Of a stretch of DNA of 23,688 nt, positions 6,868 through 19,562 are shown one piece after another. A program made the position numbers and the translations under genes. This DNA comes from a virus (Duplodnaviria; Heunggongvirae; Uroviricota; Caudoviricetes), in IMG/VR virus record IMGVR_UViG_2690316345_000009; one strand, given 5' to 3'. Every line of letters starts with the position of its first letter. The first letter of the stretch is position 1. The notes beneath the pieces are model-generated. The model did not search any database and was not told where the DNA came from. It saw only the letters and a program-made list of their open reading frames with translations.

Positions 6868-7518
6868 TCAGCGGCTGTCATTGCGCAGTCTGCGCTCCAA
6901 CTGCTGTTTGTCTTTTTTCACGCCACAGCGGGGATCGAGCTGTAACGCATGGTTGAGATGATTAAGGGCGGAAGCCGGATTGCTTTCACTCAGGACAGCG
7001 CCAATCGCTTTATGCAGACGCGCCCGTGACTGGTCCGGCATATCCAGACCGTCTGTCAGCTCCAGCGTCTGCAGCAACAGATCGGCATCAAAGCCGGTGG
7101 CGGCAAGCATTGCGCTCTGCGCTGCATCTGCCATTTCCTCTGCCAGCACGGTCTGCACGTTGCGGTTACCCAGCGGCATCACCCAGCCATGACGCAGGGC
7201 ATGACGCCCGATCTCCAGCGCCCCGGCATAATCTCCGGCATCAATGCGCCACAGCATCACGTACATCAGCACGTCATCCTGTTGAGCGCCTCCGGCAGCC
7301 AGGACGCCCTCCGCCCAGGCGGCATATTTCGGCAGCAGCTCCACCTTTATTTCCGCTTTTTTCACCGTGGACTGAACGCCCTTGAGACGGCGGCGGTCTT
7401 CCGCCAGTTGCAGCAGCATCAGGTCATAGCCCGACGCGTGGCGAACGCTGCCGCCCTCGCGGGCGGCATGTTCAGCCTGAACGCGCAGGCGATGCTGCCG
7501 TGCGGGACTCAGGCTCAT
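6868..7518 (-). CDS. Terminase small (endonuclease) subunit (P2 gpM-like)
   Basis: 216-aa ORF MSLSPARQHRLRVQAEHAAREGGSVRHASGYDLMLLQLAEDRRRLKG...ELLPKYAAWAEGVL...DDVLMYVMLWRIDAGDYAGALEIGRHAL..., strongly resembling P2 gpM; synteny O-N-M. Confidence 0.85.
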   Translation of the reverse strand: MSLSPARQHRLRVQAEHAAREGGSVRHASGYDLMLLQLAEDRRRLKGVQSTVKKAEIKVELLPKYAAWAEGVLAAGGAQQDDVLMYVMLWRIDAGDYAGALEIGRHALRHGWVMPLGNRNVQTVLAEEMADAAQSAMLAATGFDADLLLQTLELTDGLDMPDQSRARLHKAIGAVLSESNPASALNHLNHALQLDPRCGVKKDKQQLERRLRNDSR

Positions 7519-7521
7519 GAA

Positions 7522-8580
7522 TTACGCTCCGGCTTCTGCTGCGGCGGCGCTGAAGTCGCCAATCTGGATGTTTTCCACAAGTGCGGCGCAGCGGTAGTCC
7601 TCAACCACATAGGCTTCGTTAACGGATTCAAAGTTTTCAATCCGGTCACGTTTCGGGTTGTCGATAACCGAACGGCGGCGGGTGTCCTCCTGCCAGTAAA
7701 TGGACAGGTTATCCAGACGGGTGATCAGCAGCGCATTCGGCGGGAAGAACGGCGCACGCACGGCCTGCAGGCCACCCATGCGTTTCTGACTGATGATCAT
7801 ATCGGCAGCCAGTTTTTCACTGTTTTCCTGCTCTTTGTTGACCAGCGGGAAATACTTGTCAGACAGCAGCTCACGACCACAAATCACCACCAGATCGTCA
7901 TCGTCCTGGTAGACCACGTCGATAAGCTCATTGACCGCATCCATCACCACAGCGTCCAGGTTGGCATATTCGCCACCTTTCCCGACTTTCACCGCACCCG
8001 GTGTGGTTTCACCGCCCGAGGTGGTGCTGCCCATGACGTGATCCGGTGCATCCTCACGGATTTTCTGCAGCCAGCCTTTGTTCACATCCTGCAGCAGCGG
8101 GTTTTCGCTACGGTTAGAGGTTTTCGCACGCTTCACGCCGTTAAAGCCGATCATGATGCGGTCCAGTGCCTGACGTTTCACGATGGCGTTACGGATACGC
8201 ACCTGGAAATCCTGAAACTTCGCCCACAGGTCCAGCTTCGCGTAGGTCAGCACCGTGTCAAAGTTGGTCTGTTCGCATTTGTATTCCACATCGACCATCA
8301 GCGTCGGATCGACAGGTTCACGCTCTTTCGCGGTGGTGTCAGTGGTTCCGGCAATGGTGCTGCCAACACCCAGCCCCAGCAGCTGACCGGACTGCTCAGT
8401 CACTGGCGTGACGTTAATCAGCGTCAGGAAAGCGGCGGACTGCTGGATCTGGTCTTCCAGCGTCTGCTGCACAGACGGCTCTACAGTGAACTTGCTGGAC
8501 AGTTCTTCAACTGCCACACCGTTCAGACGTGCCAGTTGCTGCAGGTAAGCGTTAAAAGCAAAGCGGGTATTCTTCTTCAT
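7522..8580 (-). CDS. Major capsid protein (P2 gpN-like)
   Basis: 352-aa ORF MKKNTRFAFNAYLQQLARLNGV...; size and sequence pattern of P2-family major capsid precursor; between scaffold and terminase small subunit. Confidence 0.9.
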   Translation of the reverse strand: MKKNTRFAFNAYLQQLARLNGVAVEELSSKFTVEPSVQQTLEDQIQQSAAFLTLINVTPVTEQSGQLLGLGVGSTIAGTTDTTAKEREPVDPTLMVDVEYKCEQTNFDTVLTYAKLDLWAKFQDFQVRIRNAIVKRQALDRIMIGFNGVKRAKTSNRSENPLLQDVNKGWLQKIREDAPDHVMGSTTSGGETTPGAVKVGKGGEYANLDAVVMDAVNELIDVVYQDDDDLVVICGRELLSDKYFPLVNKEQENSEKLAADMIISQKRMGGLQAVRAPFFPPNALLITRLDNLSIYWQEDTRRRSVIDNPKRDRIENFESVNEAYVVEDYRCAALVENIQIGDFSAAAAEAGA

Positions 8581-8596: not shown

Positions 8597-9430
8597 TCAG
8601 CAATTGGTCAGAGTGTCAGCGGGGGCGTTACCGCCTGTTGCACGCTGGCGGTAGTCCTGGCGGCTGTCTTCATGACTCAGCTTATTCACCAGTTCGTTAA
8701 AGGCGGTTTGCTGCTCCTGCAGAGCAGTCTCCAGCTCAGACAGGCGTTCTTCCTGCTCAGACAGGGATTTTTCGGTGCGTGCGCTCAGGTTCTGCTGCTC
8801 AGTGGCGACCAGCTCCACGGCCTTATGTACATCAGAGAACCGGGCGTCATCGGACTGCTCTTTTTTGGTAAACAGCGCCGTGACACGGGCAAACAGGGAC
8901 GGCTTGTCCTCCTGGATTTCTTCCAGTTCGATCACCGTTTCCTCTGCAGCGGTAAAAAGATTGGCGGGATTCTGCTTGCGGTTTGCCAGCGGGTTATGGG
9001 CTGCACTGGCGCTGAATGTCAGCATTTCAGTGCCCAGACTGGCAGGGTCATCAGTGGCCGCCAGGCCGACCAGGTAGGCTTTGCCCGTATCAGCAAACTT
9101 CGGGCTGACTTCCATAGAGGTGAATAATTTCTGGCCTTTTTTCACCAGCTCCACCAGGGACTCCGTTGGCTCAACGTCGGCATACAGCGCCATCTTGCCC
9201 GCCAGCGGACCTTCCGTGATTTCTTCAGCAAACAGCGCCGTCACCTTGCCGTAGCGATTAAAGGTGCTGTCCGGCAGATAAGACTTGATGTGCTCAAGGT
9301 TAATCAGCGCGGTATACACCGCCGGGTTGTAGCTGGCTGCCATCTGTTCCAGCCATTCACGCTGGATTTCACGTCCGTCGGTAGTGGCACCTTCCACCCC
9401 GATGCGAAAACGCTTTGCTTTCACTGTCAT
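8597..9430 (-). CDS. Capsid scaffolding protein (P2 gpO-like)
   Basis: 277-aa ORF with N-terminal protease-like region and acidic, coiled-coil-rich C-terminus (EQEERLSELETALQEQQTAFNELV); first gene transcribed leftward from the divergent late-promoter region. Confidence 0.85.
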   Translation of the reverse strand: MTVKAKRFRIGVEGATTDGREIQREWLEQMAASYNPAVYTALINLEHIKSYLPDSTFNRYGKVTALFAEEITEGPLAGKMALYADVEPTESLVELVKKGQKLFTSMEVSPKFADTGKAYLVGLAATDDPASLGTEMLTFSASAAHNPLANRKQNPANLFTAAEETVIELEEIQEDKPSLFARVTALFTKKEQSDDARFSDVHKAVELVATEQQNLSARTEKSLSEQEERLSELETALQEQQTAFNELVNKLSHEDSRQDYRQRATGGNAPADTLTNC

Positions 9431-9572: not shown

Positions 9573-11339
9573 ATGAACACCACACTGACACCCGCAGATC
9601 TCGATCCCCGTCGGCAGGCCATGCTGCTGTACTTTCAGGGATACCGCGTAGCCCGCATTGCTGAAATGCTGGGCGAGAAAGTTGCAACCGTTCACAGCTG
9701 GAAAAAACGCGACAAGTGGGGTGACTATGGGCCGCTGGATCAGATGCAGCTCACCACCGCCGCACGCTACTGCCAGCTCATTATGAAGGAGCACAAAGAA
9801 GGGAAAGATTTCAAAGAGATTGACCTGCTGGCGCGCCAGTCGGAGCGCCACGCGCGGATCGGCAAGTTTAACAATGGCGGCAACGAAGCCGACTTAAACC
9901 CTAACGTCGCCAACCGCAACAAAGGCCCGCGCCGTCAGCCGGAAAAGAATGTTTTCACCGATGAGCAGATTGAGAAGCTGGAAGAAATCTTCCATTCCTC
10001 CATGTTCAACTACCAGCGCCACTGGTGGGAAGCCGGAAAAGCTAACCGCATCCGCAACCTGCTGAAGTCACGCCAGATCGGCGCGACCTTTTACTTTGCC
10101 CGTGAAGCCCTGATTGACGCCCTGCTTACCGGACGTAACCAGATTTTCCTTTCTGCCAGTAAGGCACAGGCTCACGTCTTTAAGCAGTACATCATCGACT
10201 TCGCCAAAGAAGTCGAGGTGGAGCTGAAAGGTGATCCGATGGTGCTTCCTAACGGGGCCACGCTGTATTTCCTCGGCACCAATGCCCGCACGGCCCAGAG
10301 TTACCACGGCAACCTGTATCTGGATGAATATTTCTGGATACCGAAATTCCAGGAGCTGCGCAAAGTGGCTTCCGGTATGGCTATTCACAAAAAATGGCGA
10401 CAAACCTATTTTTCCACGCCATCCAGCCTGACACACAGTGCTTATCCGTTCTGGTCCGGTGCGCTGTTTAACCGTGGGCGCAACAAAGCCGATAAGGTGG
10501 ACATCGACCTGTCCCACAACAATCTGGCCCCCGGCCTGCTGTGCGCAGACGGGCAATACCGCCAGATAGTCACCGTGGAAGATGCGGTGCGCGGCGGCTG
10601 TAACCTGTTCGACCTCGACCAGCTACGCATGGAGTACAGCCCGGACGAATACCAGAACCTGCTGATGTGCGAGTTCGTGGACGATCTCGCGTCCGTGTTC
10701 CCGCTCAGCGAACTGCAGGCGTGCATGGTGGACAGTTGGGAAGTCTGGACCGACTTTCATGCACTGGCCCTGCGCCCGTTTGGCTGGCGCGAGGTGTGGA
10801 TCGGTTATGACCCGGCAAAAGGTACGCAGAATGGCGACAGCGCCGGATGCGTGGTGGTGGCACCGCCAGCCGTGCCAGGCGGTAAGTTTCGCATTCTTGA
10901 GCGTCACCAGTGGCGCGGGATGGACTTCCGCGCCCAGGCTGATGCAATCAAAAAACTGACCGAGCAGTACAACGTGACCTACATCGGCATCGACTCGACA
11001 GGTGTCGGCCACGGGGTTTACGAGAACGTGAAAGCGTTTTTTCCAGCCGTCCGGGAGTTTGTCTACAACCCCAACGTTAAAAACGCCCTGGTACTCAAGG
11101 CCTACGACATTATCAGTCACCGTCGTCTGGAGTTTGACGCCGGACACACCGACATAGCGCAGTCATTTATGGCAATCCGTCGCGCCACCACCGCCAGCGG
11201 CAACCGCCCAACCTATGAAGCCAGCCGCAGCGAAGAAGCCAGCCATGCCGATCTGGCCTGGGCAACAATGCACGCACTGTTTAACGAACCGCTGCAGGGC
11301 GAGTCCGCCAATACCAGCAATATTGTGGAGATTTTTTGA
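9573..11339 (+). CDS. Terminase large (ATPase) subunit (P2 gpP-like)
   Basis: 588-aa ORF MNTTLTPADLDPRRQAMLLYFQGYRVARIAEMLGEKVATVHSWKKRDKWGDY...; length and sequence characteristic of P2-family terminase ATPase; followed by the overlapping portal gene. Confidence 0.9.
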   Translation: MNTTLTPADLDPRRQAMLLYFQGYRVARIAEMLGEKVATVHSWKKRDKWGDYGPLDQMQLTTAARYCQLIMKEHKEGKDFKEIDLLARQSERHARIGKFNNGGNEADLNPNVANRNKGPRRQPEKNVFTDEQIEKLEEIFHSSMFNYQRHWWEAGKANRIRNLLKSRQIGATFYFAREALIDALLTGRNQIFLSASKAQAHVFKQYIIDFAKEVEVELKGDPMVLPNGATLYFLGTNARTAQSYHGNLYLDEYFWIPKFQELRKVASGMAIHKKWRQTYFSTPSSLTHSAYPFWSGALFNRGRNKADKVDIDLSHNNLAPGLLCADGQYRQIVTVEDAVRGGCNLFDLDQLRMEYSPDEYQNLLMCEFVDDLASVFPLSELQACMVDSWEVWTDFHALALRPFGWREVWIGYDPAKGTQNGDSAGCVVVAPPAVPGGKFRILERHQWRGMDFRAQADAIKKLTEQYNVTYIGIDSTGVGHGVYENVKAFFPAVREFVYNPNVKNALVLKAYDIISHRRLEFDAGHTDIAQSFMAIRRATTASGNRPTYEASRSEEASHADLAWATMHALFNEPLQGESANTSNIVEIF

Positions 11340-12364
11340 TGGGAAAGAGTAAAAAAAACCGCGTAGCGGCGATGAATCAGATCCAGCATAAAAGCCAGAC
11401 TTCAGCCGAAGCATTCAGCTTCGGCGATCCCGTTCCTGTTCTGGACCGCCGTGAACTGCTGGACTATGTGGAATGCGTACAGACAGATCGATGGTATGAG
11501 CCGCCAGTGAGTTTTGACGGGCTGGCGCGCACCTTTCGCGCCGCCGTGCATCACAGCTCACCGATTGCGGTGAAATGCAATATTCTGACCAGTACCTACA
11601 TCCCTCACCCGCTGCTCAGCCAGCAGGCTTTTTCACGTTTTGTGCAGGACTATCTGGTATTTGGTAACGCCTACCTGGAGAAACGCACGAACCGCTTCGG
11701 TGAAGTTATCGCCCTTGAGCCTGCTCTGGCAAAATACACCCGACGCGGGTTAGACCTGGATACCTACTGGTTTGTGCAATACGGTATGACAACCCAGCCG
11801 TATCAGTTCACGAAAGGCAGCATTTTTCATCTGATGGAACCGGACATCAACCAGGAGATCTACGGCCTGCCAGGTTATCTTTCTGCCATTCCGTCAGCCC
11901 TGCTCAACGAGTCCGCCACGCTGTTCCGCCGGAAGTATTACATTAACGGCAGTCATGCAGGCTTCATCATGTACATGACCGATGCCGCGCAGAACCAGGA
12001 GGATGTGAACAACCTCCGCAATGCGATGAAAAGCGCCAAAGGCCCTGGCAACTTCCGCAACCTGTTTATGTACTCGCCTAACGGCAAAAAGGACGGGCTT
12101 CAGATCATCCCGTTGTCAGAAGTCGCGGCGAAGGATGAATTTCTTAACATCAAGAACGTGAGTCGGGATGACATGATGGCAGCGCATCGTGTGCCGCCAC
12201 AAATGATGGGGATAATGCCTAATAATGTTGGGGGATTTGGGGATGTAGAAAAAGCCAGTAAGGTATTTGTGAAAAATGAATTATTACCATTACAAAAAAG
12301 AATGAAAGAATTTAATCATTGGAGCGGTGAAGAAATTATAAAATTCGAGAGATATCAAATTTAG
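11339..12364 (+). CDS. Portal protein (P2 gpQ-like)
   Basis: Track ORF 11336..12364 begins at a TTG; the adjacent ATG gives MGKSKKNRVAAMNQIQHKSQTSAEAFSFGDPVPV...; ~341 aa, P2 gpQ-like; start overlaps the terminase stop. Confidence 0.9.
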   Translation: MGKSKKNRVAAMNQIQHKSQTSAEAFSFGDPVPVLDRRELLDYVECVQTDRWYEPPVSFDGLARTFRAAVHHSSPIAVKCNILTSTYIPHPLLSQQAFSRFVQDYLVFGNAYLEKRTNRFGEVIALEPALAKYTRRGLDLDTYWFVQYGMTTQPYQFTKGSIFHLMEPDINQEIYGLPGYLSAIPSALLNESATLFRRKYYINGSHAGFIMYMTDAAQNQEDVNNLRNAMKSAKGPGNFRNLFMYSPNGKKDGLQIIPLSEVAAKDEFLNIKNVSRDDMMAAHRVPPQMMGIMPNNVGGFGDVEKASKVFVKNELLPLQKRMKEFNHWSGEEIIKFERYQI

Positions 12365-12388: not shown

Positions 12389-13363
12389 TTAAATCAAGTC
12401 TAATGTACTCTGTTTCCCTGGCCATTTTAGCTCTAACAAATACTCCCGGGACTCATTTATGATCATAATCACATCATCATAATCCCGTTTTGTTTTTAGC
12501 GCTCTAGCCATGTTGCTCTTAACTAAATCAACTGTTCCCTCACAATTAAGATTAAGCGGATTATTAGGTAGGTGAGGTACAACCGCAAACACTGGTCTTT
12601 TCGCCTTATTTGCAAACTCAGCTTGAGTTATCGTTCCGCTATTTAACGCAGCCTCGATTAAAATTGAACCTGCAGATAATCCAACTTGTATCCGATTTCT
12701 TTGTACAAATGATTGTTTCTGGGCCGGCCGACCCATAGGATACTCAGAAATCCATGCACCACCTTTATCCAGAATCTCTTGAGCAAGTCGACTGTTTTGC
12801 TTCGGCTTAGCCTCCTCAAGACCATGCGCCAAGACAGCAATGGTTTTTCCTTTTGCCTGTAACGTTGCCTTGTGGGCATTCGCATCAGTGCCTATTGCTA
12901 ACCCACTTACAACAATATACCCAGCAGACACTATCTGATTAGTGATCCGCCTCGTTATTTCTTCCCCTGCAGGGGAGGTATCACGGGATCCTACAATTGC
13001 GACACCCGGCAATTCTTTGAGTATACTTTTATCCCCTTTTATGTAGAGAATTGATGGTGGATTAGGAGTAAAAGCTAAACTAAGAGGATAGAATTCAGAC
13101 CCATATGGTATTAGCTCCACACCATTAACATGGTGGTTCTCCAATTCAGCGTTCGCTATTAGAAAATCAGTCTCAGATATTTTATCTTTTAGAAACCCGT
13201 GGCTATTAACCATCTCAGTTAAGTCGCGTATATCACGAATAACATCAAAATCGATAAGCTCAAAGAATTTTAATACACTTTGATCAGATGCTAGCTTCCC
13301 GATTTGAATAGCTAATCCAAGTGTATTTTTTAATTCTTCTGAGTGCACTTTGCTACTCCTCAT
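12389..13363 (-). CDS. DprA/Smf-like (Rossmann, SLOG-type) domain protein; candidate ShosA-like component
   Basis: 324-aa ORF with DprA-family core motifs GVAIVGSRDTSPAGEE...GYIVVSGLAIGTDANAHKATL...IAVLAHGL; overlaps the upstream PRTase gene by ~11 nt on the same strand; AT-rich relative to the phage core. Confidence 0.6.
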   Translation of the reverse strand: MRSSKVHSEELKNTLGLAIQIGKLASDQSVLKFFELIDFDVIRDIRDLTEMVNSHGFLKDKISETDFLIANAELENHHVNGVELIPYGSEFYPLSLAFTPNPPSILYIKGDKSILKELPGVAIVGSRDTSPAGEEITRRITNQIVSAGYIVVSGLAIGTDANAHKATLQAKGKTIAVLAHGLEEAKPKQNSRLAQEILDKGGAWISEYPMGRPAQKQSFVQRNRIQVGLSAGSILIEAALNSGTITQAEFANKAKRPVFAVVPHLPNNPLNLNCEGTVDLVKSNMARALKTKRDYDDVIMIINESREYLLELKWPGKQSTLDLI

Positions 13364-13928
13364 AGTTTGCAGTTTCTAGCAGAGCTAATGGCATTATAAC
13401 TCCAGCTCCTGCAGACTCCAGTAAATAAAAACACGCAGACAAACTACCGCCTGTTGTTTTAACATCATCTAGTAGTAACACATTTCGCCCCATGAGGTTA
13501 CCACCCCTAACTCTGATACTAGACATGTGACCAGTAATTGAGCGATCTCCTCCTTCACGATGTGCGCTAGGAACAGTGCGTGTTCTTTCCAAACAGCAAT
13601 CAACAATGCCCCGACGGTGAACATTTACGATTCGCTCGGCGACCTCAATCAAAGCCGGTGAAATTCTGCCTTCAGTGTGAGACGGGACAACTGCTATCGA
13701 AAAAGGAGACTCAACAAAACGCCCACCGCCACCTCTGATTACTAACCGCCCAACCTTATCTATAGCTAATCGAGAAAAACGGTTAATGGCCCTTTGATGA
13801 TTACGATTATTTTCATCCTTAAAATCCATCATCTGCCTTGATAGTTCATCGCTATGAGGGTTGCGCTCTCCCAAATGCCAGTAGGGGTGATACAAGCCAC
13901 ACGATGTAATACTTACGGGTAAAAGCAT
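13353..13928 (-). CDS. Phosphoribosyltransferase (PRTase) domain protein; candidate ShosT-like component
   Basis: 191-aa ORF containing the type I PRTase PRPP-binding signature VLLLDDVKTTGGSL; first gene of a two-gene cassette with the DprA-like gene; sits between cos and the portal gene. Confidence 0.6.
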   Translation of the reverse strand: MLLPVSITSCGLYHPYWHLGERNPHSDELSRQMMDFKDENNRNHQRAINRFSRLAIDKVGRLVIRGGGGRFVESPFSIAVVPSHTEGRISPALIEVAERIVNVHRRGIVDCCLERTRTVPSAHREGGDRSITGHMSSIRVRGGNLMGRNVLLLDDVKTTGGSLSACFYLLESAGAGVIMPLALLETANYEE

Positions 13929-14045
13929 TCTTTATTCTCATGTAGTCCTAACTCAAACAATGTTAAGCGAAATGATATTTCATAGACAAACACAAATTTA
14001 AGAATAATCTCAATGATCACATTTTTGATTATGAAACAAAGCCAA

Positions 14046-14077
14046 GAGTTAGCGCGCGCTCGTATCCCCGCCACGCC
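14046..14077 (-). other. Candidate cos site (cohesive-end region) of the P2/186 family
   Basis: Minus strand reads GGCGTGGCGGGGATACGAGCGCGCGCT..., matching the first 13 nt of the 186 cohesive end as I recall it (GGCGTGGCGGGGAAAGCAT) and the flanking GCGCGCT of the P2 left end. Lies in a ~490-bp non-coding gap and is oriented so that the portal gene is on the left-end side, as in P2. Coordinates approximate. Confidence 0.6.
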
Positions 14078-14366
14078 TGCCCGCTTTGTGCAATGGTTTT
14101 CATGCAGGTGCATAACATACGAAAAAGTCCGTCACAACTGGCACGCCTGCGTTACAACGCTCCTCAAACGGTCATGCGATCTCATGCAGCATAGCCATGC
14201 ACTTAGGGGAGAAGTGAATGTTCGTAACCAAATGACCGTTTATATATCGAAGCAGAAGAACTAAGAAAGCTTGAGGTGTGCTTTGAACGTTAAACATAGT
14301 ATGTAAATGGTTTATTTTCCCGAGATACTCACTCGGGCCCAATCTGCTTATCGTCTTCATAAAATC

Positions 14367-14396
14367 AAACGTTCAGCCAAGAATATCTGAACGTTT
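14367..14396 (-). terminator. 10-bp-stem hairpin downstream of the HNH gene (candidate terminator of the ATPase-HNH operon)
   Basis: AAACGTTCAG-(10 nt loop)-CTGAACGTTT, ~30 nt past the HNH gene stop; followed on the minus strand by GATTTTATG. Loop is long for a canonical intrinsic terminator. Confidence 0.4.
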
Positions 14397-14422
14397 AGCT
14401 TTTATGGGCAAAACTGTATTAA

Positions 14423-15169
14423 CTAGCGAATTGACGGTAACGTCAGGCTCAAAGATTCATCATGAAGTTCCTGCATATAATCTGACCATAATCCTTGCAT
14501 CTGCATGGTTTCTTTCAGATAAGAATATTCGACTGAACGATGAAGCATTGTTGCTGATACTGCAGAAAAGGGAGATGTTTTCTGACACTCACCTAATATT
14601 GCCTCGACTAGATTCATAAGAATGTTTTTACGTCTAGTACTTGGATTCTCATTAAACCAATTAAGTTTTTCTATTGCGTCATCAATACTGCTATCTATAA
14701 GTTCCCCTGCTTTACAACGCGGTATAAACTTGTGCTCCCTGTGATTAAAGTTTAAAACATCCACTGTTGTTTTACCTAAATCAGTTTTACCTTTAATACG
14801 ATACCCTATCATATAAAGGTGTTCTGACGGTAAATCGTTGCATGGATTTATTATAGGATTGAGTACAACATTATGGCGTTGTTTTGAACCATTACAGTGA
14901 CGGCATGAAGGAAGGAGATTTTCCCATCTAATAACATCATCAGGGAAATTTTTTTTATCCTTAAAATGCTCAATTTCATTATAGGTGCTAGCCTCTTCAA
15001 GCTTGACCTCACAAAATGCACATTTGCCATTACTTAATTTTAGACATGCCGATTTTACTTCCGGATGATGCCAAACAGATGTTCCATTATCTTTAAACTC
15101 CTGAGTTAAAGATAGAAGATCAACACGAGTAAAAAAATCAGGAATAAAGTTCCGTTCAAGCTTAATCAT
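14423..15169 (-). CDS. HNH endonuclease-domain protein; candidate Septu PtuB-like nuclease
   Basis: 248-aa ORF with HNH-type arrangement CAFCEVKL...EIEHFKDKK...WENLLPSCRHCNGSK; start 1 nt after the stop of the upstream ATPase gene; strongly AT-rich. Confidence 0.7.
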   Translation of the reverse strand: MIKLERNFIPDFFTRVDLLSLTQEFKDNGTSVWHHPEVKSACLKLSNGKCAFCEVKLEEASTYNEIEHFKDKKNFPDDVIRWENLLPSCRHCNGSKQRHNVVLNPIINPCNDLPSEHLYMIGYRIKGKTDLGKTTVDVLNFNHREHKFIPRCKAGELIDSSIDDAIEKLNWFNENPSTRRKNILMNLVEAILGECQKTSPFSAVSATMLHRSVEYSYLKETMQMQGLWSDYMQELHDESLSLTLPSIR

Positions 15170-15170
15170 T

Positions 15171-16352
15171 TTACTCTTCTCTCTCTCGAATTGACATCAG
15201 GCTTATTTTAAGAGATTTACGAAGAATACTGTTTTGATGCAATGCCATATCCAAATAATCATAAATTTCTTTCGCCTTGTCGAAATTTTCTTCATCAACA
15301 AAACGTTCGAAATTATCAAGTAGTTCTTGTAGTTTTCTACTGAGAGTGCTTTCCATCCCCATTACATCTAACAAAACCTCTTCAACTGTCCAGGCAGAAT
15401 AACCCAAGCCATTTTCAGGAAGTTCTTTTACTCTCACTGTGCCATCATTATCTGGTACTAACGCAATGATCTGATGTGGTTTTGCATTCTGTACTACATG
15501 TGGGCTGTGAGTTGTGACAATAAATTGTGCTGATGGAAATGTTGTCGTAAGGGCTTCAGTGATTCTTGCCTGCCACTCAGGATGCAAATGAAGCTCAATT
15601 TCATCGATAAGAATCACTCCATCAAATTCTTGGGCGTAAATATCTTTCTCCGGATAACGAAGCTCGATCTCTTTAATAATACCGAGAAGGAGACTCATAC
15701 ATGATTTGAATCCCGAGGACAGATATTCATACCATATTACCCCGGTCGGGGTATTTACAAAAATATCGTAAGATTTAGGATCGACGCGATTGTAAGAAAA
15801 CTGAGGGTTTAAAATTGATATACACTCCCTTGCAAGATGTATATTTTTTATCGTATTAGGACCGTAACCATTATCTACTTTTTCAAACAAATCCCTCTTA
15901 GCAAACCAATCCTTGATATCATGTAAATTGACACCTAAATTAATCTGTTGCGAAACAGCATCATCGGATAGTGATTTATCTGCATTCAACGCCTCAAGAT
16001 GTTTATAATCAAAGTTACGTAATATTTCAAATTTTATTAGTTTCCTCTTATCAAATCCGTTATTATTAAAGTTGTGAATTGTTTCTGTAGGCAAATGAAC
16101 GTTAACATCTAATACTGAATTAAAGTTAACAGAATTATCTTCTATTATTAGACTAACACTTCCTGTTTCAGAAGTGACATTGCGTTTTATTCTATTAGTG
16201 TATCCATGAAGAAAAGGAAAGGAGGCAGCAAGCAAGAGTGTGGATTTTCCAACTCCGTTAGGCCCACATATAATATTCATGTCAGGCCTAAATTTTACGT
16301 ACAGGGACTTTATCCCCCCGATACCGTTTATAGTTAGCTCAGTCAGTTTCAT
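15171..16352 (-). CDS. ABC-type (AAA_15/21-like) ATPase; candidate Septu PtuA-like component
   Basis: Track ORF 15171..16373 starts at a GTG; likely start is the in-frame ATG with upstream AAGGAAA giving MKLTELTINGIGG.... Walker A GPNGVGKST, ABC-signature-like LSSGFK, Walker B VILIDEIELHLHP, H-loop TTHSP. No TOPRIM or other nuclease domain fused. Confidence 0.7.
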   Translation of the reverse strand: MKLTELTINGIGGIKSLYVKFRPDMNIICGPNGVGKSTLLLAASFPFLHGYTNRIKRNVTSETGSVSLIIEDNSVNFNSVLDVNVHLPTETIHNFNNNGFDKRKLIKFEILRNFDYKHLEALNADKSLSDDAVSQQINLGVNLHDIKDWFAKRDLFEKVDNGYGPNTIKNIHLARECISILNPQFSYNRVDPKSYDIFVNTPTGVIWYEYLSSGFKSCMSLLLGIIKEIELRYPEKDIYAQEFDGVILIDEIELHLHPEWQARITEALTTTFPSAQFIVTTHSPHVVQNAKPHQIIALVPDNDGTVRVKELPENGLGYSAWTVEEVLLDVMGMESTLSRKLQELLDNFERFVDEENFDKAKEIYDYLDMALHQNSILRKSLKISLMSIREREE

Positions 16353-16587
16353 ATATTTCCTTGTAATTTCCACTAACCCACATTCAGGATTAGCTAGATA
16401 CTAAGGAACAAGCCAAGTGTTGTAAATAAAAAATCTTATCTTATATTCGAGTTAGAAAAGTATGTTGCACCCGCTGGTTGAGCAAACAGTACAAAGCTGG
16501 CGGCCATTGAAGATCATGACCGCCATACCTAACGCCTCGCTTCACTCGTTGTTCAACCTTGTTCCCTCTGATAGGATCCTATCGGGA

Positions 16588-16809
16588 TCAACGTTTTAAT
16601 GTAACCTGCTGCATTATTTCCATTACTCGCTTTTTGTCTTCATCCAGTTTTAACCCGCTCAGTTCAACACCATTGGCGCTGCCCTTACGGATACGAATTG
16701 CTGTTTTGGGATACAGAGGGCGCAAATTACGGTAGAGCTCGGATTCAAGGGCTTCCAGTGTGGCCTGGCTAATCTTCTGCTCTTTATCGATCATTATTTC
16801 AATGCGCAT
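16588..16809 (-). CDS. dinI: DinI-family protein
   Basis: 73-aa ORF MRIEIMIDKEQKISQATLEALESELYRNLRPLYPKTAIRIRKGSANGVELSGLKLDEDKKRVMEIMQQ, matching the E. coli DinI pattern; downstream of a LexA-box-like operator. Confidence 0.75.
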   Translation of the reverse strand: MRIEIMIDKEQKISQATLEALESELYRNLRPLYPKTAIRIRKGSANGVELSGLKLDEDKKRVMEIMQQVTLKR

Positions 16810-17168: not shown

Positions 17169-19562
17169 TTAGTACCATCGACGCCATTTGTCATCTTCCT
17201 GCAGCCTCTGTTTACGGTAAAAAATACGTAAACCGGCACCGGATGGAATGCTGCCGCCACGCAGAAGCAAATCAATCTCAGATACACTACCCTCAAACCC
17301 TCTGGCAGTCAGTTCTGCCTCAAGCTGCAGGCGCTGCTGCTCCGAAATACTCTGTATGTATGCTTTTTTTCGCTTCGGTTTTACCAGTCTCAACCTGGCT
17401 GTCAGCTCCCGCCGTTCCTTCTGGCCCATGTTGTGGAGATATTCCTGCAGCTCCTTCTCATCCATGGTTTTAATATCGGGTAAATCCCCCCCTGATTTGT
17501 TCATATTTTCAACAGGGGGACAGTTATTGCCACGAGTCCAAGGGGCGCAAGCGCCCTGGTCGGCTACCGCCTCCTGAACGTCAACGGCTTTACGAACCAT
17601 TTTCCACTTCACTGCATGAGTGCAGATCTTGCCCTCTGCAATGGGTGACCAGATGCCATAAATACGAATGCCGTGATCGCCATAGGCGGTCGGCTCTTCG
17701 TTAATTTCATAAGCAGTTCTGATGAGGTGATATTTGCGGGGAACCAGTACGCCGCCCTGCTTCATGATGTAAGTGGCAAAACAACCAGCATCAGCAGCAG
17801 CCAGGATTGCATCAAGGCGCGGGTTATCCAGTACCGGCGCACCTGCTTTTTTGTCCCCCTGTTGCCTTGCCGCCTGACCAGCCAGCAATCGCAGTTCACG
17901 GTAAGCCTGACGCCCCGGAATGCCAAAGAAGCGGAATTGCTGAACACGATGCAGAGACGCCCAGGCATTAACGTATTCAGCGTTATCACGCAGGGATTTA
18001 CCCGTTTCCTTACTGATCTCGCCAGCCAGACCACGCCCGTCAATATTCTTACTGATATATTTCGCAATGTAGCTTGTCGGCGTTCCTTTGCGCGGGTTTA
18101 TCAGCTCAGACTTAAAGCGTGGCCCCGTGTTATTGCCCAGCTCCTCGCGGTCTTCACGGATGGCAAACTTACGCAACAATGCAGTAATGGCGCGGCGGTC
18201 TTTTTTGCGCATGAAACACAACAGGTGCCAGTGAACTGTGCCGTCATGATGCGGCTCAGCCACCCGCACGCCATACCAGCGCAACCCGGCTTTGTGCATA
18301 GCCTTACGAAATGCAGCAAACATGCCGACCAGATAATCGCTGCTTTGTCTTACTGTCGCGTTGGTCCAGGTCGGGTTTGGCCTGCCGTTATTTAGCGTGG
18401 AATGGAAACGTGACGGACAGGTGATGGTGTAGAAAACGGCGCAGTCACCGCGCATTTCCGCGATAAGCTCCAGACCTTTAACACAGGCCATCATCTCATT
18501 GCGGCGATGCGCAGGGTTGCTGCTGCTGGCGTTTACCACGTCTTCCATATCCAGCGTGTCGCCGTCTTCGTTCACCAGTTCATGAGAACGGAAAAACTCC
18601 AGCGACTTACGGCGCTGCTCACGTTTATGCATCACGGCTTCATAGCTGACATAGGGAGATGCTTTTTTGCTGACCAGGCAAACAGCACGCAACTGCTCTT
18701 CCCGCCATTCGCTACGCATCTTCCATAATTTCCGATACCACCAGTCGGCGCACAACATACGCGCCAGCGAACCCGGAATAAGTTCATAGGGCACGGGTTT
18801 ACGGCGGTTTCTTTTCCGGCGGAGTTGCTCAAACGCAGGCGGTATGACATCCAGTCGCAGGGTTTCCGCCGCCACCTTTTCCCATGTCTTGCGGATTTCT
18901 TCTGGCTTAACGTCATCGGTGGCATACAAATCACCACAAGCGACCTCAAGACACATGCTCATATGCGCTGCTACCAGGGTGGACAGGCGTTTTACCTGAT
19001 CCTGACTCATTTCAGGCAGGATCAGCAGGCCGTCCAGCCCTTCATGGCTTGCCATAAAGCGAAAAGAAGTGGATAGCTGACTGTCGCGTACATGCTCCAG
19101 TCTTTCCAGACATGGCTTAATCGTCTCACGCAAATAGCGGGAATAAGCCTTTGGCCTGCCCAGACTGCTGAAGTATTCAATACGTTGCATCAGCGGCTTG
19201 CTGATATGGGAAGGCAGGGCGTTGACGTCAGCCAGAATGACCATGTCTGGATTAAAACGCTGCTGCTCATGCGCCAGCTTTGCCCGGCTAATGAGCTTAT
19301 CCTGCTCCATTTCGCGCTGGACAGGATCACGGGATTCATTAAAGAAATAACGCTCCCAGACCTGCTCACTCAGTGCCTCGCGGCGCAGTTGTTCCTGCTC
19401 GTTATCGGCAGCATACAGAGTGATCAGGTTTGAAAGTGCAGACTCCGGCGCAAATTCCGCCGGGTCCAGATAAGGGTTAATGGCCTTTTTCGGGCCGTTC
19501 CATGAAAATGATGCAGCGGCCTCGTTAAAGCCGCTAGAGTTGCTCATATCGTCATGACTCAT
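17169..19562 (-). CDS. Replication initiation endonuclease (P2 gpA-like rolling-circle initiator)
   Basis: 797-aa ORF; size and position (between the Dam/TraR operon and the SOS module) match P2/186 gene A; start overlaps the dam stop (ATGA). Confidence 0.85.

What the first reader, a model, noticed from the sequence alone, without database searches (positions are those of the whole stretch)
14046..14077. cos-like cohesive-end sequence with 186-type 5' half but divergent 3' half
The minus strand reads GGCGTGGCGGGGATACGAG. The first 13 nt match the 186 cohesive end as I remember it, and the following GCGCGCT resembles the P2 left-end flank, but positions 14-19 differ from both P2 and 186. If this is the functional cosN, this phage has a distinct cohesive-end sequence, which would affect packaging compatibility with satellites or helpers.
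Basis: partly seen in the sequence, partly recalled or inferred. Interest (0 to 1): 0.5.

Follow-up and report, generated by a model that had tools for sequence, protein, structure and literature searches.

The report
Fels-2-type cos site of P2-like prophage
This is the DNA-packaging cut site (cos) of a P2-family prophage; its 19-base sticky end differs from the textbook phages P2 and 186, but it is the common, already published version carried by Fels-2, SEN8, Cartapus and roughly a quarter of complete E. coli genomes, so it is ordinary.

Summary
The minus strand at 14077→14059 reads GGCGTGGCGGGGATACGAG, followed by CGCGCGCT.

It is a genuine P2-family cos site. It lies between portal gene Q and replication gene A. 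It carries the family's conserved flanks, and intact terminase genes (gpM, gpP) sit nearby.

The 19-mer is not distinctive to this phage:
- It is identical in prophage Fels-2, in Salmonella phage SEN8 (published as its cos site in 2017) and in E. coli phage Cartapus (annotated as a putative cos site).
- It was the commonest cosN variant in an IMG/VR sample.
- It occurs in many genera of Enterobacterales.
- Its 65-bp core matches 1245 of 5426 complete E. coli genomes.

The cos type tracks terminase lineage. The window's gpP is 99% and its gpM 98% identical to Cartapus, against 64% and 49% to P2.

The conserved module spans about 150 bp (14052–14201). It includes TGCAT boxes at fixed offsets that are also present in P2, 186 and satellite P4.

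Cleavage at this cos type has not been shown experimentally. Verdict: real, correctly identified, already known, low interest.

The parts
14059..14077 (-). cosN, the 19-nt predicted cohesive end GGCGTGGCGGGGATACGAG. By analogy with P2/186, the top-strand nick falls between 14078 and 14077 and the bottom-strand nick between 14058 and 14059, giving 5' overhangs.
   Evidence: Sequence read. Aligns in register with the annotated cos of P2 and 186. Identical to SEN8 positions 1-19 ('putative cos site'), to Fels-2 and to Cartapus.
14052..14058 (-). CGCGCGC, the conserved left-end flank (positions +20 to +26). Conservation stops abruptly after it.
   Evidence: NGCGCGC follows cosN in P2, 186 and P4. 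Among 63 ATACGAG-type loci conservation is at least 90% up to +26 and then falls. It was part of the search pattern, so that sample cannot test it independently. BLAST homology to relatives starts at 14046-14051.
14078..14116 (-). Proximal right-end flank, reading 5' to 3' on the minus strand: TGCACC (14112-14107), TGCATG (14106-14101), AAAACC (14100-14095), then AAGCGGGCA (14086-14078) abutting the nick. Candidate terminase recognition core.
   Evidence: Homologous to the 186 and P2 right ends. Family-wide consensus is CA..TGCAT.AAAA....AAGCGGGCA. Identity to P2, 186 and P4 in this block is 64-77%, against 16-36% in the spacer for the same pairs and for P2 with 186 or P4.
14173..14201 (-). 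Distal TGCAT boxes: TGCATG 14201-14196, TGCATG 14188-14183 and GCATG 14177-14173, at offsets -124, -111 and -100 from the nick. Candidate accessory terminase-binding sites (inferred).
   Evidence: GCAT peaks fall at the same offsets (-123, -110, -100, -28) in most loci of the ATACGAG, CTACGAG and ATAGCAT types; in the P2 and 186 types the -110, -100 and -28 peaks do. The individual P2, 186 and P4 sequences carry all three distal boxes. Conservation is at least 90% within the Fels-2 type.
14052..14201 (-). The whole conserved cos module, about 150 bp.
   Evidence: Conservation profile of 63 unique loci. BLAST block 14046/14051-14203 against 79 phage records and about 1240 E. coli genomes.
6868..7518 (-). 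gpM homologue, the terminase small subunit (annotated 'endonuclease subunit' in some records).
   Evidence: Pfam Phage_term_smal, E = 2e-40. 98% identical to Cartapus and 49% to P2 gpM.
9573..11339 (+). gpP homologue, the terminase large (ATPase/nuclease) subunit.
   Evidence: Pfam Terminase_5, Terminase_6N and Terminase_6C. 99% identical to Cartapus and 64% to P2 gpP.
11336..12364 (+). gpQ homologue, the portal protein. It marks the left-arm side of cos.
   Evidence: Pfam Phage_portal. The gene order matches P2 and 186: cos, then Q, then P.
12389..13928 (-). Neighbouring cargo on the portal side, the ShosTA (Shosta) defence pair. Context only, not part of cos.
   Evidence: PADLOC ShosA 2.8e-70 and ShosT 3.7e-14; Pfam DprA-like.
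14423..16373 (-). Neighbouring cargo on the gpA side, the Septu PtuA/PtuB defence pair. Context only, not part of cos.
   Evidence: PADLOC PtuA 1.2e-151 and PtuB 1.6e-95.

Best explanation
The site is the cos packaging site of an Elveevirus/Felsduovirus-like member of the P2 family (Peduoviridae), present here as a prophage. The proposed mechanism follows P2. After excision and replication, the phage terminase (gpM plus gpP, both encoded about 3-7 kb away in the window) recognises the roughly 150-bp cos module. Most recognition elements lie on the gpA side of the cut: the TGCAT boxes, AAAACC and AAGCGGGCA. The terminase then nicks the two strands 19 nt apart, at 14078/14077 on the minus strand and 14058/14059 on the plus strand. 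The packaged linear genome therefore carries 5' single-stranded ends GGCGTGGCGGGGATACGAG and its complement, which anneal on infection to recircularise the genome. The 3'-half variant ...ATACGAG is the lineage-typical 'Fels-2-type' end, not a peculiarity of this phage. Shown here: the sequence, its position, its homology, its distribution and its co-inheritance with the terminase lineage. Inferred by analogy with P2/186: the nick positions, the overhang polarity and the role of the flanking boxes.
For: The site aligns in register with the annotated cohesive ends of P2 and 186 and with their right-end flanks. The gene order M-N-O / P-Q / cargo / cos / cargo / gpA matches a P2-type prophage. The identical 19-mer with the same flanks occurs in Fels-2, in SEN8 (record positions 1-19, 'putative cos site') and in Cartapus ('putative cos site, homologous to the cos of P2 phage'). 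The SEN8 genome paper reports ggcgtggcggggatacgag as its cos site (PMC5427200). Of 120 IMG/VR loci matching the degenerate family pattern, 26 carry this exact 19-mer, the largest class. Of the ATACGAG loci classified across the IMG/VR and genome samples, 58 of 66 lie next to P2-like Q, P or A genes, as do 89 of 94 further exact-match loci. There are 54 exact matches in species-representative genomes, mostly Enterobacterales. The 65-bp core matches 1245 of 5426 complete E. coli genomes. Conservation is sharp-edged, running from -124 to +26. The cos type tracks the terminase: gpP in NTACGAG/T loci is 83-100% identical to the window's (one 65% outlier), against 63-65% in P2- and 186-type loci. 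The window's gpM and gpP are 98% and 99% identical to Cartapus. Cartapus was measured by virome sequencing and qPCR in phage preparations from LF82 cultures, with coverage above the bacterial background (PMC9928086). That shows a near-identical terminase and cos pair yields packaged DNA.
Against: I found no experimental mapping of virion DNA ends for any phage with this 19-mer. The SEN8, Cartapus and Smp131 sites were all assigned by analogy with P2. Only 23.7 kb of the prophage is visible, so I cannot show that the whole prophage is intact or inducible. Cartapus virion yield was very low and no myovirus particles were seen. The co-variation of cos type with terminase could be shared descent alone and does not prove specificity.
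Confidence: 0.9

Rival explanations
1. It is an inactive cos relic in a defective or decaying prophage. The sequence is retained by descent but is no longer cut or used.
For: Only part of the prophage is visible. P2-like prophages are often poorly inducible, and Cartapus gave very low titres.
Against: All head and packaging genes in the window are full-length ORFs with full-length Pfam matches: M, N, O, P, Q and gpA. The terminase is 98-99% identical to an inducible phage. The window's cosN, CGCGCGC, AAGCGGGCA and TGCAT boxes match the family-conserved elements.
Confidence: 0.07
2. The conserved 150-bp block is conserved for another reason and the cos resemblance is incidental. Candidates are a small protein gene (ORFs 13913-14113 on the minus strand or 14013-14264 on the plus strand; some phage records annotate a 'hypothetical protein' here), a small RNA, or a promoter/terminator.
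For: Two ORFs of 66 and 83 aa overlap the site. Several phage records annotate a hypothetical protein under the homologous block.
Against: Both ORFs cross the sharp homology boundary at 14046-14052 into unrelated cargo DNA, so neither is conserved as a whole. Neither has a meaningful family hit. Rfam gives no match at E <= 1. Promoter and terminator scans are at or below the shuffle expectation. The block aligns in register with experimentally defined P2/186 ends and with satellite P4, whose only region shared with P2 is cos.
Confidence: 0.02
3. It is a chance GC-rich match.
For: None beyond the short length of the motif.
Against: Expected matches in shuffled windows are 0.01. The match extends over about 150 bp of homology to hundreds of P2-like elements.
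Confidence: 0.01

Closest known systems
cos of Salmonella phage SEN8 (KT630647; Felsduovirus), prophage Fels-2 (NC_010463) and E. coli phage Cartapus (OV696611; Elveevirus)
   Same: The 19-mer GGCGTGGCGGGGATACGAG is identical, as are the CGCGCGC and AAGCGGGCA flanks and the TGCATGAAAACC box. The location is the same, between the portal-side cargo and the gpA-side cargo. The terminase is near-identical to that of Cartapus (PMC5427200).
   Different: A few polymorphic flank bases differ, for example TGCACCTGCATG here against the commoner TGCAGGTGCATG. The cargo genes on both sides also differ.
cos of coliphage 186 and Salmonella phage PSP3 (Eganvirus)
   Same: Positions 1-13 are identical. The ends are 19 nt, GCGCGC follows, and the right-end flank and distal TGCAT boxes are homologous.
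   Different: Positions 14, 16, 17 and 19 differ (TACGAG against AAGCAT) and position 20 is C instead of T. The gpP of 186-type loci is only 63-64% identical.
cos of P2 and satellite P4 (ends determined experimentally; core region of 55 bp according to Ziermann and Calendar 1990, as cited in PMC3931495 and PMC9122126)
   Same: The architecture and the offsets of all the boxes are the same, and cosN is 14 of 19 identical.
   Different: Position 5 is T instead of A, and the 3' half differs. The terminase is 64% (gpP) and 49% (gpM) identical. P2 has no cargo between cos and Q.
Deduced cos of Stenotrophomonas phage Smp131 (GGCGTGGCGGGGAGACGAG)
   Same: It differs from the window's 19-mer at one position only (position 14). 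This shows the ...ACGAG 3' half is widespread in the family.
   Different: The host is from a different order, the flanks are divergent, and the site was also assigned only by analogy.

Membership tests
P2-family (Peduoviridae) cos site | A 19-nt GC-rich cosN beginning GGCGNGGCGGGG | tested here: met
   Aligns in register with the annotated ends of P2, 186 and PSP3.
P2-family (Peduoviridae) cos site | Conserved core flanks: TGCAT-AAAAC...AAGCGGGCR immediately before cosN and NGCGCGC after it | tested here: met
P2-family (Peduoviridae) cos site | Location between portal gene Q and replication gene A (the old/tin-type cargo region) | tested here: met
   Pfam annotation of the window's ORFs. Layout as described in PMC9122126.
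P2-family (Peduoviridae) cos site | Cognate gpM/gpP terminase encoded by the same element | tested here: met
P2-family (Peduoviridae) cos site | Terminase cleavage giving 5'-protruding 19-nt cohesive ends in virion DNA | not testable with these tools
   Needs end sequencing of virion DNA. No such data for this 19-mer were found in the library.
Fels-2/SEN8/Cartapus-type cos (cosN = GGCGTGGCGGGGATACGAG) | Identical 19-mer with a CGCGCGC flank, next to a Fels-2-lineage terminase | tested here: met
186/PSP3-type cos (cosN = GGCGTGGCGGGGAAAGCAT) | Identical 19-mer | tested here: not met
   15 of 19 positions are identical; positions 14, 16, 17 and 19 differ.
P2/P4-type cos (cosN = GGCGAGGCGGGGAAAGCAC) | Identical 19-mer | tested here: not met
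   14 of 19 positions are identical.

The most novel reading that the evidence does not exclude
The 3' half of cosN (...AGCAY against ...ACGAG), together with lineage-specific flank bases, may define separate packaging-specificity groups within the P2 family. In that case Fels-2-type phages would be largely insulated from classical P4-type satellites, and only a divergent set of P4-like satellites (those carrying CTACGAG ends, such as L018 and L068) could pirate them. The sampling is consistent with this but does not show it. None of 120 exact-ATACGAG IMG/VR loci is P4-like. All 75 loci with a cos downstream of a P4-like psu carry ...AGCAY-type ends. Two P4-like contigs carry CTACGAG with Fels-2-type flanks.
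Probability: 0.15. Interest if true: 0.45.

Novelty: already known. Interest (0 to 1): 0.1.

Why it matters
It matters little for discovery. The site is the expected packaging signal of a very common prophage lineage, and its sequence is already in the literature and in GenBank annotations. It has practical value: it fixes the physical genome ends for annotating this prophage, and it marks the centre of the gpA-cos-gpQ defence-gene hotspot (here Shosta on one side and Septu on the other). The one open point is whether the P2/186-type and Fels-2-type ends are functionally interchangeable for helpers and satellites. Virion ends for this cos type also appear never to have been mapped experimentally.

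Tried and rejected
- I searched the paper library for experimental end-mapping of this cos type, using exact and reverse-complement sequence strings, Fels-2/cos/P2-like terms, Felsduovirus/PhageTerm, and gpM/gpP/terminase. Only annotation-level statements turned up (SEN8). Ziermann and Calendar 1990 is not held.
- Three further searches failed on term length.
- An Rfam scan of 13800-14500 found nothing.
- A promoter/terminator scan of 13850-14480 found nothing above the shuffle expectation.
- The two overlapping small ORFs had no family hits and both cross the homology boundary, so I rejected them as genes.
- A 9-mer direct repeat, GCAGGCGTG, occurs at the nick and again 70 nt upstream. I judged it probably chance: about 0.2 such repeats are expected in 351 bp, and the second copy is only moderately conserved.
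- I considered partial two-fold symmetry of cosN by eye. Only 4 of 9 mirrored positions pair, which is too weak to claim.
- I sampled P4-like satellites through Psu. The result was dominated by close P4 relatives, so it says little about divergent satellites.

Full report
**The observation.** The window's plus strand at 14059-14077 is CTCGTATCCCCGCCACGCC, and at 14051-14058 it is AGCGCGCG. The family pattern GGCGNGGCGGGG-N8-GCGCGC occurs once in the window even with two mismatches allowed. Shuffled windows give 0.01 matches.

I fetched the reference genomes rather than rely on memory. P2 (NC_001895) begins GGCGAGGCGGGGAAAGCAC/TGCGCGCT, annotated 'cosL'. Phage 186 (NC_001317) begins GGCGTGGCGGGGAAAGCAT/TGCGCGCC, annotated 'cos'. 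Positions 1-13 equal 186, positions 14, 16, 17 and 19 differ from both phages, and position 20 is C instead of T.

**What it is.** The surrounding genes are those of a P2-family prophage:

| Gene | Coordinates | Strand |
|---|---|---|
| Small terminase gpM | 6868-7518 | - |
| Capsid gpN | 7522-8580 | - |
| Scaffold gpO | 8597-9430 | - |
| Large terminase gpP | 9573-11339 | + |
| Portal gpQ | 11336-12364 | + |
| Replication protein gpA | 17169-19562 | - |

The site lies between Q and A, which is where cos lies in P2 and 186 once the linear map is closed into the prophage order. On the gpA side of the 19-mer the window reads ...TGCACCTGCATGAAAACCATTGCACAAAGCGGGCA. This is plainly homologous to the right ends of 186 (...TGCAACTGCATTAAAACCGACCCATAAAGTGGGCA) and P2 (...GGTGCATTAAAACCGCCCCGTGAAGCGGGCG).

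**It is not a new variant.**
- The identical 19-mer with the same flanks is present in the Salmonella LT2 prophage Fels-2.
- It forms positions 1-19 of Salmonella phage SEN8, where GenBank marks it 'putative cos site'.
- It lies within the 59-bp 'putative cos site, homologous to the cos of P2 phage' of E. coli phage Cartapus.
- The SEN8 genome announcement prints ggcgtggcggggatacgag as the cos site (PMC5427200).
ATACGAG was the largest class (26 loci), ahead of the P2 type (21), ATAGCAT (15), CTACGAG (9) and the 186 type (6).
- The exact 19-mer occurs in 54 stretches of species-representative genomes. Nearly all are Enterobacterales, including Klebsiella, Enterobacter, Citrobacter, Raoultella, Pantoea, Serratia, Leclercia and Escherichia spp. 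A few lie outside, such as Pasteurella testudinis and Chitinimonas.
- The 65-bp core (14046-14110) finds 1245 of 5426 complete E. coli genomes, almost all at 90% identity or more.
- Stenotrophomonas phage Smp131's deduced end differs at a single position.

**The cos type travels with the terminase lineage.** Among fetched loci that carry both a cos and a gpP homologue, those with NTACGAG/T ends have gpP 83-100% identical to the window's, with one 65% outlier. P2-type and 186-type loci have 63-65%.

| Window protein | Identity to Cartapus | Identity to P2 |
|---|---|---|
| gpP | 99% | 64% |
| gpM | 98% | 49% |

The head and terminase module is 96% identical in DNA to Cartapus and to Klebsiella phage 4LV2017. 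Cartapus was measured by virome sequencing and qPCR in phage preparations from LF82 cultures, at low level but above the bacterial background (PMC9928086). An essentially identical terminase and cos pair can therefore yield packaged DNA. This is indirect support for function, not an end-mapping.

**Anatomy.** Sixty-three unique ATACGAG-type loci show a sharp-edged conserved block running from -124 to +26 relative to the top-strand nick, which is window 14201 to 14052. This agrees with the BLAST block 14046/14051-14203.

Across cos types, GCAT motifs sit at fixed offsets: -110, -100 and -28 in every common type, and also -123 in the ATACGAG, CTACGAG and ATAGCAT types. The individual P2, 186 and P4 sequences carry all three distal boxes. 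The only region P4 shares with P2 is cos (PMC9122126). In ungapped four-way comparison the blocks behave differently:

| Block | Pairwise identity |
|---|---|
| Distal boxes | 55-77% |
| Spacer, -95 to -40 | 16-36% (52% for 186/P4) |
| Proximal block | 64-77% |
| cosN | 74-100% |
| +20 to +26 | 86-100% |
| Beyond +26 | 25-46% |

I infer that the TGCAT boxes, AAAACC and AAGCGGGCA are terminase recognition elements lying on the side that becomes the right end of the mature genome. The 19-mer plus NGCGCGC would be the nicking site. This is an inference from conservation. The library cites a 55-bp core from Ziermann and Calendar 1990, which I could not read. I therefore do not know whether the distal boxes have been described.

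**Alternatives.**
- Two small ORFs overlap the site. Both run across the homology boundary into unrelated DNA and have no family matches.
- Rfam finds nothing.
- Promoter and terminator scans are at or below background.
- A relic in a dead prophage cannot be excluded from 23.7 kb. However, every packaging gene is full-length and the family-conserved elements of cos are intact.

**Satellites.**
- In the degenerate sample, 12 of 120 loci are P4-like, with hits to alpha, sid, psu or delta. They carry P2-type, AGAGCAT, ATAGCAT, GAAGTAT or CTACGAG ends, and none carries ATACGAG.
- None of 94 additional exact-ATACGAG loci is P4-like.
- All 75 loci with a cos downstream of a P4-like psu carry ...AGCAY-type ends.
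- Two divergent P4-like contigs (L018, L068) carry CTACGAG with Fels-2-type flanks.

This hints at two packaging groups.

**Context noticed.** The cos is flanked by a Shosta pair (ShosTA, 12389-13928) on the portal side and a Septu pair (PtuAB, 14423-16373) on the gpA side. This is the gpA-cos-gpQ defence hotspot described by Rousset et al. 2022. The two sides assort independently:
- E2348/69-type prophages share ShosTA plus cos at 98.6% identity.
- Strain OkiPb01711 shares cos plus PtuAB at 100% identity from 14046 onward, but has an AIPR gene in place of ShosTA.
- No complete E. coli genome covers 80% or more of 13930-14420.

The breakpoint lies within about 6 nt of the CGCGCGC edge of cos.

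**Verdict.** This is a real, correctly recognised cos site of the Fels-2/SEN8/Cartapus type. It is already published, annotated and very common. Novelty: already known. Interest: low.

Noticed in passing
window 12389-13928 (-) and 14423-16373 (-): The cos is flanked by two anti-phage systems. Shosta (ShosA 2.8e-70, ShosT 3.7e-14) lies on the portal side and Septu (PtuA 1.2e-151, PtuB 1.6e-95) on the gpA side. This is the P2 gpA-cos-gpQ defence hotspot of Rousset et al. 2022.
   Followed up: partly
window 14046-14052 (left edge of cos); loci L360, H148-H152: There is a mosaic breakpoint at the edge of cos. E2348/69-type prophages share the ShosTA side plus cos (98.6%). Strain OkiPb01711 shares cos plus the PtuAB side (100%) but carries an AIPR gene instead of ShosTA. 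No complete E. coli genome in the collection has this window's combination across 13930-14420.
   Followed up: partly
window 14173-14201 and 14101-14112 (-); also P2, 186 and P4 cos regions (L003, L004, L183): TGCAT boxes lie at fixed offsets (-124, -111, -100, -29) from the nick. They are shared by Fels-2-, P2- and 186-type phages and by satellite P4, while the roughly 55-nt spacer between them is unrelated. They are possibly accessory terminase-binding sites. I could not check whether this is already described.
   Followed up: partly
IMG/VR loci L018, L068; L278-L357: Close P4 relatives all carry ...AGCAY-type cohesive ends. None of 120 exact-ATACGAG loci is P4-like. Two divergent P4-like contigs carry GGCGTGGCGGGGCTACGAG with Fels-2-type flanks. 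Some satellite end types (for example ...AGAGCAT) were not seen next to P2-like phage genes in the sample.
   Followed up: partly
window 14072-14080 and 14142-14150: The 9-mer GCAGGCGTG (minus strand) spans the top-strand nick and recurs 70 nt upstream. The upstream copy is only moderately conserved among relatives, so this is probably chance.
   Followed up: yes
genome loci L130, L131, L135, L136, L160 (Chitinimonas sp. BJB300) and L139, L163, L174 (C. taiwanensis): The exact enterobacterial-type 19-mer occurs on five contigs of Chitinimonas sp. BJB300 and three of C. taiwanensis (both Betaproteobacteria), and in a few unlikely MAGs (Chloroflexia, Hydrogenedentota, Christensenella). This could reflect several P2-like prophages, assembly fragmentation or contamination.
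   Followed up: no
window 16588-16809 (-): A small ORF sits between PtuA and gpA. It corresponds in position to the DinI-like gene annotated in the near-identical E. coli prophage (L360) and to the DinI-family gene of Fels-2.
   Followed up: no
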